Source: the human T2T-CHM13v2.0 reference genome, Homo sapiens
Direction: 5' to 3' (one strand)
Assembly (NCBI RefSeq): GCF_009914755.1
Contig: NC_060928.1
DNA: 64,000 nt
A program made the translations under genes and the position numbers. The notes under the pieces are model-generated. The model saw only the letters and a program-made list of their open reading frames with translations. It did not search any database and was not told the DNA's origin. This document shows, piece after piece, positions 10,880 to 41,492 of this stretch (position 1 is its first letter; the number at the start of each line of letters is the position of its first letter).

Positions 10880-11258
10880 TGTATAGGTCCGTTCTCACAC
10901 TACTAATAAAGACATCCCCAAGACTGGGTAATTTATAAAGGAGAGAAGTTTAATTGACTCACAGTTCTGCACGTCTGGGAAAGCCTTAGGAAACTTACAA
11001 TCGTGGCAGAACTGGGGATGAACATGTTCTTCCTCACGTTGCGCCAGGAAGGTGAAGATTGAGAGCCAAGTGAAGGGGGGAGCCCCTTATAAAACCATCA
11101 GATCTCCTGAGTACTTACTCACTATCACAAGAATAGCATGGGGGAAACCACTCCCATGATTGAATTACCTCCTATTTGGTCCCTCCCACCATACATGGGG
11201 ATTATGGGAACTACAATTCAAGATGATATTTGGGTGGGAACACAGCCAAACCATATCA
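10880..11258 (-). mobile_element. THE1 solo LTR (ERVL-MaLR), THE1D-like
   Basis: tgtat...ccatatca termini, 379 bp, with 'gccccttataaaaccatcagatctc' and 'actacaattcaagatgatatttgggtggg'. Confidence 0.9.
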
Positions 11259-36649: not shown

Positions 36650-36792
36650 TCAGATGTGGGTTCACATTCTAGCTCTGCTACTTCCTGAGGATCCTTTGTC
36701 ACAGTGGCAGACCATAAAATCGGATTAATAATGCTTACTCCTTAAAATAATTTACAAAATTAAAGGAGAAATCAGTTGTGCAAATCTGTCTC
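36650..36792 (+). mobile_element. MIR 5' part, interrupted by the retrocopy; 3' remnant resumes at ~39652-39700
   Basis: 'gggttcacattctagctctgctactt...ataaaatcggattaataatg...aattaaaggagaaatc' on the left; 'cattagataattaatcattttagttccctt' on the right. Confidence 0.55.
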
Positions 36793-36846
36793 TTTTTTTG
36801 CCCTTTCAGTTTATTTTATTTTTATATTTTTTAACATTTAAAGATA

Positions 36847-36852
36847 TTTATT
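36847..36852 (-). terminator. AATAAA poly(A) signal of the CTAGE-like 3' UTR
   Basis: tttatt on + strand, ~15 nt from the A-rich tail at 36810-36832. Confidence 0.7.
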
Positions 36853-37065
36853 TGAAAAATAATACCTTACAATCCTAGTCCTATCAATCAAACTTCAGTA
36901 AGAGCAATTTTAGCATCAACTAACAGTAGCTAAACTAACAACAGATCAACTGAAAGTGTTTTAAAGGGAGCAGAACCAGCTGATGTTCTGTAGAGTCCAT
37001 GGACATTCAGGACCTGGCTACAAGGAAAGCAAAGCCAAACCGGCAGGTGGTCTGGAGAGAAGCCC

Positions 37066-38546
37066 TCATACCCACACCGTGACCAGCTTCCCTCCTGGTG
37101 GCCCTAGCGGCCCATGAACCCCCTGTGGGGTTCTGAGCCCCTGTGGGCTGTGGGTCAAACCCCAGAATCCAAAGGGCCACTCAGGAAAGGCTAGAACTTG
37201 GAACTCAGTCATCTGGCTTCTGCGTGTTGTGGTCATTTTCTTTCTGGAGCACCTGGAGCACTCTCTTGGTGGACGTTGTGGCCATCCAGCCTTCCTGGGC
37301 CATTTTCTCACGGAAGAAGATCTCCCTATGAAAATTGGAAGCGTCTTCCTTCAATTCCTGGGCCAGGTCTTCTTGTAGTGGTTCTGAGCCATTTTCTTGT
37401 AGTAGTTGCGGGTGTAACACACACGTTTCAAATTTTTTTGCACCTTGAAAAGTCTCTGGTTGAGGTGCAGGCAGTGGGCGTCCTCCTCCGTGGACTCCTG
37501 CTGAGGCCCCATTGTGGGTTCTTGGTGCAGTGCAGGTGGAGTGGGATCCTCAGCTGCAGCTTCAGGAGCTCCTTCTCCAGCTGTGTCCTTGCACCCTGCA
37601 GAGAGCCCTGCTGGTCCAGTCAGACTTTGGACTTGTGCTGTGACTTCTTTCCTCCTTTGGATTTCTTTTCACAACTGCATGTCTGCTTCTTCAGTCTCCC
37701 CCTCAGGACATTCGAGGGACACATCTAAGTCACCATCATCATCCACACTCTTTGGAGGGTCTTGTGGCCAGGACACTGGGGAACCACCATGTCCCGCTTC
37801 CCTGTTCCCCTCCACTGCCGAGTTACCATCCTCACATGATCTCCCACCCTCAAGCAGATGCAGGATGCTCGGCGGGGTGTGGCCCGGGGAGGTCAATCAC
37901 CTCACTTCAACATTCGTGGTCTGCTTAATTCCAGTCTTGGCCTGCTCCTGCCTTTCCTTCTTCGCCTTTTTTCTGGCAAACGTTGCTTTCATCTCACAAT
38001 TTCTTGGTGGGGCAGCTCTGCAGGTGGCTGACAGTCCGTGCTGTCCTTCAGATCCTCCGCAGTTTGCCCCTGAAGATCTTCTCCCTCGTGCTGTGAAACA
38101 TGCGGGACCCGCTTTGTTCAGTCACTCGGGGAAGTTCAGGAGATTTGTGTTTTTGTGCTTTTTTCAGAGGCACCCCGAAGTCCTGATGGGAAGACTTGCT
38201 TATTTCCTTGAGAACCCTTGAGTAGAGGGTTTGGAGTGATCGAGGACTGGCCTGCGGCATGGGCAATATGAGGCCACCACCACCCTGGGGTGCTGGCTGA
38301 ATCTTGACTCTGGCCTTGATGATCTCACCCTGGGCCGACTCCCTTTGGGCTGGCTCTTCCCTTCTTCTCACCGCATGTCGTCTCCTGACTATAAAGGCCG
38401 CCACAACAGTGCACGACCGTATCACCCAGGATATCCATAGTTTGCAGGCATTAGTCCCAGGATTCTCTACATCACTAGCACTGTCACCCACATGTGGGCC
38501 AGCAGCAGCTCAGAAGGCATTTCGTGGTGGGAAGCAGGCCCTCCGT
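37066..38546 (-). pseudogene. Frameshifted, intronless CTAGE/MIA2 (TANGO1-family) coiled-coil pseudo-CDS
   Basis: Stitched frames give 'QDPPKSVDDDGDLDVSLECPEGETEEADMQL*KEIQRRKEVTAQVQSL', 'QLEKELLKLQLRI', 'YYKKMAQ..DLAQELKEDASNFHREIFFREKMAQEGWMATTSTKRVLQVLQKENDHNTQK'. These are collinear with recalled cTAGE5 'LNASLKTLEGERNQ...FENENQKLQQKLK...[57 protein letters not shown]'. Start context gccACGg at 38546; multiple stops and frameshifts. Confidence 0.8.
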
Positions 38547-39591
38547 GGCTCCCGAGAGCTCTGCAGCTCTGCCTCTCCTTGCCAGTGGCGTGTGGGCCAC
38601 AGCTGACCACTGGGAACTCTGCAGAGTGTTCCGTCTCCAACACAAGAAATGGCCCACCAACAAGGTAGACCATCCATCTGCTGGGGATAGGGAAGGTATC
38701 CTGTGTTCCAGAAAACTGTGTCCCTGATTTTGCTGTGCAAATAGAAAGTGACATTACTTATGCAATGCCTTGGGGAAGTGGAAAGAGCTCATGGCAGCCC
38801 CTAGCTCAAGCCACTCCAGATCCTACCAGGCCCTAAAGCAGAGCTAGAGAGTCAAAGCAGGGCCACGCCATGGTCCTGAGTCCACACATGATCCTCTCAA
38901 GGCAACATGGTGGCCCATCCCAGGTGAGGCTCATGACCGTGATTTCATGTTTCCTTCTGCTGCAGGGAAGCCTGGTCCTACTTGCAAAAAGTCTGTCTAC
39001 CTTGCTAGATTGAGCTGCCTGAAGAAAGGACTCTGTTTTCTTCATCTCCATATCCCATGTATCTAGCTAATGCTCACTACACTCCAGGGACTGGGTCATT
39101 GTTTATCTTATTTTTTTGTTGACTCTACTCTGACTTAGGACGTGCCACTTTCCCTCTTGACCTCCATATTCAGATCTGTACATAAGAGGAAGTGGGTAAA
39201 GTTCCCTCTAGCTTTAAAACTCCTCCAATACAGAGAGAACTCTGAAACCAGAGCCAGAAGCTGAGGAATGGTGAAGATGGTGAATGGAACATTTTCCTTG
39301 GCATGATGGAGGGGACCTGCAGGTTTGGCTATTAGGGTAGCATCTGGCCACTTCAATGCCTCTGCAGAATTTGATTCCAGCTTTCAAATCAGACTCAGAA
39401 ATGATCTTCAGTGTCGGTGGTTTTATGGTTTGTTTCTTTTTTTTAATTGACACAATAGCTTCTGAAAATCTTTTTCATGGAGAGTATGGGGGCTTCTTTG
39501 ACCAAATTGCGTGGGTGCAGACTCCATCTGCTCATCAGCCACTGTCTGGGCCACAGCGTGTCTTCAGAGTCCTGCTCCTGTACATAGGTTT

Positions 39592-39651
39592 AATCATGGC
39601 AGAAGGCAAAGGAGACCCAGACACGTCTTCCATGACCAGAGCAGGAGGCAA
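39592..39651 (-). mobile_element. MSTA (ERVL-MaLR) LTR-derived first exon of the retrocopy
   Basis: Minus strand 'ttgcctcctgctctggtcatggaagacgtgtctgggtctcctttgccttctgccatgatt' matches the MSTA R region and ends where the consensus continues GTAAGTTT. Confidence 0.8.
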
Positions 39652-40759
39652 TGTGCAGATCTTTCTCCATGCATTAGATAATTAATCATTTTAGTTCCCT
39701 TTCTGCATTCTTTCTTTTAGCAAATTGTGTGCCTTATGTGATACTGGCTTAGAACAATACCAAATAAGCTGTAGGAGTATGTAAGTTCTTAGAAAGAAAC
39801 TAGCGGAAGGTGATGGTTTTCAAAAGAGGGTTATATTTTCAAAGGGAAAATGTTATGGACCTAAACTGAGTATTTTACCTTTAATTTAATGTACGCTACA
39901 ATATATTTATACCAGTGAATAAAATCATGATTTTTTGCTTAAACGATTTTATTAAAGATAAACTGAGAATAAGATGACTGCTATCATGCTTTAAAAACAA
40001 GACTGTGTTCTCTTCATCAACATTTTCTTCCCCTTCATTTCAGATCACTTCTTCCCTTTTATTTCAGACCATAATTGATTCTACCTTTGAATTCTCCTAT
40101 CCTCCTCTAATTGCTACCAGCATATTTTCCAAGGAACTTCTTAAAAGTGTATTTTCAAGACACCTTTCTATATGCCTCTAACCAGAATTACATTCCTTTT
40201 CTTTTGTGCCCTTATAGCATACTGTGTATATTTATCATATGATGTTGCTTTTGTCGTTGTTGTTGTTTGTAACTTGCTTGGTTGTTGTTGCTGCTTTTCT
40301 GGACTTATCTTATTGATAGAATTCTACATTTTAGCATTAGAAGGGACATCTGAGTTTGTGGTCAACTCTAAAATGAGTCCAAAGTTCAACTTTACCTCTC
40401 AATTACTGAATAGACTTAGCAAGTTATAAAACCTCCTACCCATTAGATTCTGCCACTATAAAATTGAATTAATGTCAATTTTATAGAATGGTTATAAAGA
40501 TTAAAAATAATACCTCTAACTAACAGGGTGCCTGCTGTATAATAGGCCATCAGTAGTTATTACTTGTAAGATTTTAGACAGTGTACCTGAACATGTCTTT
40601 ATCCTGTGAAAGTTCTGTTACAGGGAATGCCTTGCGTTTAATATGTAATTGAAGAAAGGAAGAGTTGGAAAGATGATTGGACATCTAGGGCTATGGTGAT
40701 CACATGCATAGCTTGCAAAACTTAACAAAATAAAGATAATACTTAAGAATTTACAGGAA

Positions 40760-41055
<296 letters not shown>

Positions 41056-41403
41056 AAGAATTTACAGGAACACAGCTTAAAACACTGTAACTCAACTGTG
41101 GAAAGCTGGACAATAATTAAAATGGATATAGTTCTTACATTGTAATAAAGAAAGGAAGTGTTCTCTTTGTGCAAAGATCTGGTCAGTGGTTTTAAATGCA
41201 AAGTTAGAAAAACTTACTTATTAACTTAATAACAGATGCTAGTTAATATATAAACTTCATTTGCTTTGGTATAAGACTAATGATGCTACTTTCTTCTTTA
41301 AAATCATAATTATAAAGAATGAAATTACCTAATTTTAAGCAAAACTAAAAACACATTTTTCTGCATAGTAAGTAATAGAATGATCTACTGATCAAAAGCA
41401 CAG

Positions 41404-41492
41404 TAGTTTCTTTCTTTTGTACTACTGAGAAAGAATCATTAGTTCATAGTTTCTTTCTTTTGTACTACTGAGAAAGAATCATTCATTCATAG
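41404..41492. repeat. 43-bp tandem duplication (2 copies)
   Basis: tagtttctttcttttgtactactgagaaagaatcatt(ag/ca)ttca x2. Confidence 0.95.

What the first reader, a model, noticed from the sequence alone, without database searches (positions are those of the whole stretch)
39585..39651. LTR homology ends exactly at the MaLR splice donor
Seen: the minus strand reads ...ttctgccatgatt|aaacctatg, and only 60 nt of LTR are present, starting right at the TSD. Recalled: MSTA continues ...ccatgatt|GTAAGTTT, the conserved MaLR donor, and the pyrimidine-rich start lies near the LTR TSS. Inference: this is a spliced exon 1-exon 2 junction, so the retrocopy is nearly full length to the cap and lacks its own U3 promoter.
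Basis: partly seen in the sequence, partly recalled or inferred. Interest (0 to 1): 0.7.

Follow-up and report, generated by a model that had tools for sequence, protein, structure and literature searches.

The report
Fossil of an LTR-started spliced mRNA
A broken, intron-less gene copy on chromosome 4 starts with about 60 bases of a retrovirus-like repeat joined exactly at that repeat's splice site to the second exon of the FAM120AOS gene, so it is likely a DNA fossil of a germline RNA that such a repeat once started, made by a well-known copying route.

Summary
Observation confirmed. The minus strand 39651-36793 is a processed pseudogene (both introns gone, decayed A tail, 14/16 target-site duplication). 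Its first 57-60 nt match MST-type MaLR LTRs: 25 of 39 genomic LTR hits end exactly at 39592 and all within 3 nt; 13 of 19 copies read continue GT. From 39591 on it matches a family of at least 20 other human loci, 10 of which start matching at that very base. The intron-bearing source is the FAM120AOS locus (chr9:105.62 Mb), where a polypyrimidine tract and AG precede this base. The junction is thus LTR donor to exon-2 acceptor, with no microhomology. The 5' end maps a median 32 nt after the LTR's TATA-like word, so near the likely start site; no U3 is present. Downstream lies a decayed ORF of about 500 aa, TANGO1/cTAGE5-like. Not found: the donor LTR. None of the matching type lies in 86 kb upstream of FAM120AOS exon 2, and the copy shares more variants with a processed sister at chr4:187.84 Mb, so the direct template is open. 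Known mechanism, neat example; moderate interest.

The parts
39652..39667 (-). 5' copy of the target-site duplication (16 nt; may extend over 39651-39649)
   Evidence: 14/16 identical to 36777-36792; 4 of 2000 random pairs reach this
39592..39651 (-). Exon 1: MST-type MaLR LTR piece from about the start site to the splice donor (clear homology 39648-39592)
   Evidence: 39 LTR matches at 82-91% ending at or within 3 nt of 39592; 13 of 19 continue GT; start a median 32 nt after the TATA-like word
39470..39591 (-). Homologue of FAM120AOS exon 2 (121 nt at the source, between a 401-nt GT-AG intron and a 2786-nt GC-AG intron)
   Evidence: 78.5% identity to source exon 2; locus named by UniRef match
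38991..39469 (-). Homologue of FAM120AOS exon 3, joined to exon 2 without the intron; homology to the source stops at 38991
   Evidence: 83.1% identity over 391 columns
37022..38588 (-). Decayed ORF of a ~500-aa TANGO1/cTAGE5-like coiled-coil protein: at least four frame changes and five stops
   Evidence: tblastn of the intact 495-aa relative P0017; P0017 found by profile search; Atlas clusters TGO1 0.95 and MIA2 0.94
36847..36852 (-). AATAAA polyadenylation signal
   Evidence: sequence
36793..36832 (-). Decayed poly(A) tail, 29 A of 40
36777..36792 (-). 3' copy of the target-site duplication

Best explanation
The stretch 39651-36793 is an intron-less copy whose first exon is an MST-type LTR piece ending at the LTR's splice donor and whose second exon begins at the FAM120AOS exon-2 acceptor, so it is likely an L1-made cDNA of a germline transcript that an MST LTR started and spliced into a FAM120AOS-type gene. 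Shown: donor position, acceptor at the source, loss of both introns, A tail, duplication, absence of U3. Inferred: that an MST LTR lay upstream of the template and fired in the germline; that reverse transcription ran to within a few bases of the cap; that this happened roughly 45-65 million years ago (non-CpG distance 0.19-0.20 to the source exons, with recalled neutral rates). The copy kept only the transcribed R part of the LTR, so it was likely silent on arrival, and its ORF has since decayed.
For: LTR homology ends at the donor. Family homology starts one base later: 10 of 18 non-self matches start exactly at 39591 and none earlier. The source has exon1 GT donor, 401-nt intron, 17/20 pyrimidines and AG before that base. 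The same acceptor takes other donors: UniRef FAM120AOS models join two different upstream exons to it (P0001, P0002), and the chr20:8.98 Mb copy lacks exactly the 87 nt between an alternative GT donor and the main donor. Intron 2 is also gone. No shared bases at the junction (TT|GT versus AG|AA). A random join would hit both an LTR donor (1 of ~195 transcribed positions) and one of 2 acceptors in ~3.3 kb about 3 times in a million (my arithmetic). MaLR LTRs supplying start site plus donor and splicing to exon 2 are described (PMC5538554; PMC3836709; MSTA in human oocytes, 10.1101/723254).
Against: The donor LTR was not found: chr9:105,613,155-105,703,700 (86 kb upstream of the acceptor) holds one same-strand MaLR LTR, 63.5 kb away, of another type, 42/61 identical and with a decayed donor, against 49-55 matches for the 19 best genomic copies. 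An LTR upstream of FAM120AOS exon 2 would have to fire antisense through FAM120A. The window shares only 1 of 27 derived columns with the source but 7 of 31 with a processed copy. The 5' flank (CATG|GAGA) is not a canonical L1 nicking site. No second copy with this junction exists. No expression data were available.
Confidence: 0.88

Rival explanations
1. Same splice event, different template: the LTR spliced not into the ancestor of today's FAM120AOS locus but into a secondary copy, either a lost intron-bearing duplicate or an older processed copy such as chr4:187.84 Mb, using the exon-1-terminal AG as a cryptic acceptor (a retrocopy of a retrocopy). This refines the best explanation and does not exclude it.
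For: 7 of 31 window-derived columns are shared with the chr4:187.84 Mb copy against 12 of 293 for the other ten copies (binomial 2e-4, chosen after the fact, about 2e-3 over ten); 9 of 38 in the wider scan; the pair is split from the rest with bootstrap 98 in the whole-length tree. No fitting LTR at FAM120AOS. LTRs reviving processed pseudogenes are described: 78 of 842 mouse cases (PMC5538554).
Against: In the 5'-region tree the pair has only 56/92 support and a window+source clade is not rejected (p-AU 0.155). Processed junctions are poor acceptors (8-11/20 pyrimidines, 7 copies). No MaLR LTR in the 11.4 kb read upstream of the chr4:187.84 Mb copy; further upstream was not read. That copy now lacks nearly all of the 3' part.
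Confidence: 0.4
2. The chr20:8.98 Mb copy is the template: it has a same-strand MST LTR with an intact donor 2.1 kb upstream of a CAG|AAACC acceptor.
For: Layout fits: LTR at L052:2100-2523, donor 2078 nt above the acceptor.
Against: Its LTR matches the window piece at 43/61, well below the best genomic copies; shared derived columns are at background (10 of 178; 2 of 23); it lacks about 530 nt that the window has, though that loss could be later.
Confidence: 0.07
3. Chimera made by a reverse-transcriptase template switch between an MST RNA and the gene's mRNA (L1- or LTR-mediated), with no splicing.
For: The donor LTR was not found in cis. Template-switch retrocopies exist (PMC5131818).
Against: The join falls on both splice sites to the base; no microsimilarity (25 of 29 junctions had it in PMC5131818); no LTR at the 3' end; L1 hallmarks present.
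Confidence: 0.04
4. An ordinary retrocopy landed in or beside an old MST LTR and later deletions trimmed both.
For: MST LTRs are common (19,782 MSTA copies listed in PMC3836709).
Against: The duplication encloses the LTR piece; no LTR remainder on either side; two deletions would have to end on both splice sites.
Confidence: 0.02

Closest known systems
L1-mediated processed pseudogenes
   Same: Introns removed, A tail, 16-nt duplication, decayed ORF.
   Different: Its first exon is an LTR piece, not the gene's CpG-island exon 1 that at least eight sister copies carry.
MaLR LTR-initiated chimeric transcripts (MSTA-RHOBTB3, THE1B-HEY1, MLT1B-PPCS, MSTD-IL33)
   Same: Start site and donor from one LTR, spliced to a host exon 2 (10.1101/723254, PMC3836709, PMC5513427; passages).
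   Different: Here only the retroposed cDNA is seen; the LTR in cis was not found and no RNA data were examined.
HERV-W processed pseudogenes
   Same: L1 copies of LTR-started RNA that lack the 5' U3 and so their promoter (PMC5775608, passages).
   Different: Those copy the element's own RNA; this one copies a host gene under an LTR first exon.
Pseudogene recycling by ERVL/MaLR LTRs in mouse oocytes
   Same: Would be the upstream step if the template was a processed copy (PMC5538554).
   Different: That work shows LTRs driving pseudogenes; this would be the product retroposed once more.
CTAGE retrogenes / MIA2 (cTAGE5), MIA3 (TANGO1)
   Same: Distant protein likeness: weak hits (E 0.006-0.6, 30-61% over short stretches) to loci with 804-863-aa open frames that I recall as CTAGE retrogenes; Atlas names for the intact relative.
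   Different: A separate, more diverged family with FAM120AOS 5' exons; the window ORF is broken.

Membership tests
L1-mediated processed pseudogene | Introns of the source precisely absent | tested here: met
   Intron 1 replaced at its acceptor, intron 2 (2786 nt) removed to the base
L1-mediated processed pseudogene | 3' A tail after a polyadenylation signal | tested here: met
   AATAAA 36852-36847; 29 A of 40
L1-mediated processed pseudogene | 7-20 nt target-site duplication | tested here: met
   14/16; 4 of 2000 by chance
L1-mediated processed pseudogene | TT|AAAA-like endonuclease site | tested here: inconclusive
   Flank reads CATG|GAGA; not canonical, but the site is old
L1-mediated processed pseudogene | Empty site in an outgroup genome | not testable with these tools
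   No related genomes are held
MaLR LTR-initiated spliced transcript (full 5' exon co-option) | Exon 1 ends at the LTR's own donor | tested here: met
MaLR LTR-initiated spliced transcript (full 5' exon co-option) | Joined to a true host acceptor | tested here: met
   AG after 17/20 pyrimidines at FAM120AOS exon 2
MaLR LTR-initiated spliced transcript (full 5' exon co-option) | Start site inside the same LTR | tested here: inconclusive
   5' end 19-39 nt (median 32, 19 copies) after the TATA-like word; fits 35 bp in PMC5513427, a different subfamily; no CAGE data
MaLR LTR-initiated spliced transcript (full 5' exon co-option) | Donor LTR present upstream of the template, same strand | tested here: inconclusive
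   Not in 86 kb at FAM120AOS or 11.4 kb at chr4:187.84 Mb; two candidates fit poorly; most other copies were read only about 1.5 kb upstream
MaLR LTR-initiated spliced transcript (full 5' exon co-option) | Spliced reads in germline RNA | not testable with these tools
   No expression data
MSTA subfamily | Best score to the MSTA model among MST/THE1 models | not testable with these tools
   No repeat library; best genomic matches are solo LTRs with a TTTAAAAG-type TATA region; the label MSTA is recalled
LTR-mediated retroposition (template switch) | LTR sequence on both sides | tested here: not met
   No LTR match near the 3' end
LTR-mediated retroposition (template switch) | Microsimilarity at the junction and no L1 hallmarks | tested here: not met
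   None at the join; A tail and duplication present
TANGO1/cTAGE5-like proteins | Homology over the membrane and coiled-coil region | tested here: met
   33-71% pieces to P0017 over residues 2-495; P0017 nearest Atlas clusters TGO1 and MIA2; no Pfam family above cut-off for the window frames or P0017
TANGO1/cTAGE5-like proteins | Intact reading frame | tested here: not met
   At least four frame changes and five stops

The most novel reading that the evidence does not exclude
This copy is the sole record of an extinct MST-promoted germline isoform, made by relay (gene to retrocopy, LTR capture, second retrocopy), and human FAM120AOS is the surviving 5' stump of a lost TANGO1/cTAGE5-like gene that seeded more than 20 unannotated retrocopies, which together preserve three different exon-1 choices of the ancestral gene.
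Probability: 0.3. Interest if true: 0.6.

Novelty: new member of a known kind. Interest (0 to 1): 0.4.

Why it matters
Retrocopies with LTR first exons are dated, base-exact records of which LTRs were promoters in the ancestral germline, where the start site lay and which donor was used, even when the LTR or the gene is gone; a genome-wide screen for 'TSD + 57-60 nt MST + foreign exon' would give a fossil map of such promoters. The side result, that FAM120AOS exons are the 5' end of a decayed cTAGE5/TANGO1-like gene with many retrocopies, offers an origin for a poorly understood antisense gene. The locus itself is likely inert.

Tried and rejected
Sibling copies with the same junction: pattern search, 22 matches at up to 3 mismatches against 28 for the control, only the window at fewer than 3. 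Donor LTR at FAM120AOS: one MaLR LTR of another type, rejected. chr20:8.98 Mb as template: rejected on LTR identity and shared variants. Donor LTR near chr4:187.84 Mb: none in 11.4 kb; beyond that, and the chr11:69.9 Mb copy, stay unread. Pfam on seven window frames: 0 of 7 with a match. PDB sequence search: nothing meaningful. Word-indexed homologue searches with a chr18 frame and with alignment A1: none; the exhaustive profile search found 35 proteins, one of them (P0023) a repeat-driven false hit. Rfam on 36700-39800: one sub-threshold match, taken as chance. Whole-family tree is nearly star-shaped, so it does not name a parent (one row per locus for 21 loci, about five further listed loci not read; the chr10:18.98 Mb row was left out of the tree). 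FAM120AOS as a disease gene: the one passage read says that the proposal was overturned by reanalysis (PMC10465531).

Full report
Observation. The minus strand reads ...TTCTGCCATGATT|AAACCTATG across 39592/39591. Searching the genome with 39560-39680 returned the window and 39 other matches (40 of 105 candidates scored), all to the left part only; 25 of 39 end at 39592 and the remaining 14 within 3 nt. I read 19 of the 39: they are solo MaLR LTRs; after the homologous base 9 continue GTAAGT and 13 continue GT. Clear homology is 57 nt (39648-39592); three more bases are ambiguous between LTR and duplication. The subfamily name MSTA is recalled; no repeat library was on hand.

The insert. A 16-nt duplication (39667-39652 and 36792-36777, 14/16) encloses 2859 nt; 4 of 2000 random pairs score as well. 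The 3' end has AATAAA at 36852-36847 and 29 A in 40 nt. The 5' flank is not a canonical L1 nicking site. Upstream to 44000 there is no U3, only Alu matches and 14-24 nt scraps.

The other side of the junction. The body matches at least 20 other human loci at 77-87% (40 of 136 candidates scored, about five further loci listed but not read). With 39300-39595 as query, 10 of 18 non-self matches begin exactly at 39591 and none earlier. At least eight copies carry a shared GC-rich 5' region in place of the LTR piece. One locus has introns: chr9:105.62 Mb. There the GC-rich exon ends GAAG|GTACAG, a 401-nt intron ends in 17/20 pyrimidines and AG, a 121-nt exon starts AAACC and ends at a GC donor, and a 2786-nt intron leads to exon 3. 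The minus-strand ORF of this locus is 99% identical to chimpanzee FAM120AOS in UniRef; the plus-strand ORF I recall as the start of FAM120A. The window joins exon 2 to exon 3 without the intron. The acceptor is used by other donors too: UniRef models P0001 and P0002 translate across two different upstream donors into this exon (these are annotations, not reads), and the chr20:8.98 Mb copy lacks exactly the 87 nt between the alternative and main donors. So the window junction is LTR donor to exon-2 acceptor, with no shared bases at the join.

How near the cap. In the 19 LTR copies the base matching 39651 lies 19-39 nt (median 32) after the first base of a TATA-like word. For an MSTD promoter, 5' RACE put the main start 35 bp after the TATA box (PMC5513427, passages; figure not seen). 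The copy therefore likely starts within a few bases of the start site; this is inference across subfamilies.

What the gene was. Seven window frames have no Pfam match. One frame weakly hits loci with 804-863-aa open frames that I recall as CTAGE retrogenes. A profile of seven family frames found 35 proteins, among them intact 495- and 508-aa ORFs; the Atlas places P0017 nearest to TGO1 (0.95) and MIA2 (0.94) clusters. P0017 maps to 38588-37022 with at least four frame changes and five stops. The mRNA was thus FAM120AOS-type 5' exons followed by a TANGO1/cTAGE5-like ORF. At the human source, homology stops at 38991; the coding part is found 45 kb upstream on the same strand, inside FAM120A, without an A tail. 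I cannot explain that order.

Age. Non-CpG Kimura distance to source exons 2 and 3 is 0.196 (105 columns) and 0.19 (387 columns); with recalled neutral rates this is roughly 45-65 million years, in the range recalled for MST activity.

What does not fit. The donor LTR was not found. chr9:105,613,155-105,703,700 holds one same-strand MaLR LTR 63.5 kb above the acceptor, of another type, 42/61 identical, donor decayed, while the 19 best genomic copies give 49-55 matches (these are the top of a search, so not a random sample). The chr20 copy has an MST LTR 2.1 kb upstream, but 43/61 and background sharing. The window shares 7 of 31 derived columns with a processed copy at chr4:187.84 Mb against 12 of 293 for ten others and 1 of 27 for the source; tree support is 98 in the whole-length tree but 56/92 in the 5' tree, and a window+source clade is not rejected (p-AU 0.155). 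No MaLR LTR lies in 11.4 kb upstream of that copy; further upstream is unread. Processed junctions are weak acceptors (8-11/20 pyrimidines in 7 copies), which favours an intron-bearing template. The direct template is open: the FAM120AOS ancestor with an LTR since lost or further away, a lost duplicate, or an older retrocopy. No sibling with the same junction exists.

Mechanism. Shown: donor, acceptor, intron loss, tail, duplication, no U3, broken ORF. Inferred: an MST LTR upstream of the template fired in the germline, its donor spliced to exon 2, L1 proteins copied the mRNA to near its cap and inserted it here; lacking U3 it was likely silent. Template switching is unlikely because the join hits both splice sites, has no microsimilarity (25 of 29 junctions had it in PMC5131818, passages) and has no second LTR.

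Comparison. Each step is known: MaLR start-plus-donor first exons (PMC5538554, abstract and passages; PMC6102241, passages; PMC3836709, passages; MSTA in human oocytes, 10.1101/723254, passages; PMC5134097, passages) and L1 copies of LTR-started RNA lacking U3 (PMC5775608, passages). I found no paper on this locus, on retrocopies bearing an MST first exon, or on a FAM120AOS-cTAGE link in ten searches (listings only unless named above); the library lacks most subscription papers and I did not open supplements, such as the human co-option table of PMC5538554, which may list FAM120AOS or a sister locus.

Verdict. New member of a known kind; interest 0.4.

Noticed in passing
L051 1892-3330 and L028 1490-1950 (chr9:105.61-105.62 Mb): FAM120AOS exons 1-3 are the intron-bearing source of a family of at least 20 retrocopies that continue into a decayed TANGO1/cTAGE5-like ORF; intron 2 has a GC donor.
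   Followed up: yes
L009 1501-3245 (chr9:105.661-105.663 Mb): The coding 3' part of the family sits 45 kb upstream of FAM120AOS exon 1 on the same strand, inside FAM120A, with no A tail; it groups with two other chr9 copies (bootstrap 97). Order unexplained.
   Followed up: partly
L014 3888-3930 and L052 2100-2523 (chr20:8.98 Mb): Retrocopy that preserves an alternative-donor isoform (87 nt shorter exon 1) and has a same-strand MST LTR with intact donor 2.1 kb above its acceptor: a candidate for an LTR-driven transcript in its own right.
   Followed up: partly
L016 2079-2693 (chr13:35.478 Mb): A 0.6-kb LTR (MER41-like, recalled) is inserted 4 nt into exon 2 with a 4-nt duplication; a MaLR LTR lies inside the same copy.
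   Followed up: no
L021 1431-2460 (chr4:187.84 Mb): Closest sister of the window copy; keeps the 5' region and 475 nt of exons 2-3, then a 72-nt inverted piece of the ORF region, rest lost.
   Followed up: partly
L010 4008-4098 (chr12:54.79 Mb): A 91-nt inverted duplicate of the region matching window 38819-38729 (90% identical) lies upstream of that copy.
   Followed up: no
window 10880-11244, minus strand: Solo MaLR LTR of another type (THE1-like, recalled) with an intact GTAAGT donor.
   Followed up: no
window 41130-41153, minus strand; 41404-41492: 24-nt scrap like a MaLR LTR 3' end 1.5 kb upstream of the insert, and a 43-nt tandem duplication.
   Followed up: no
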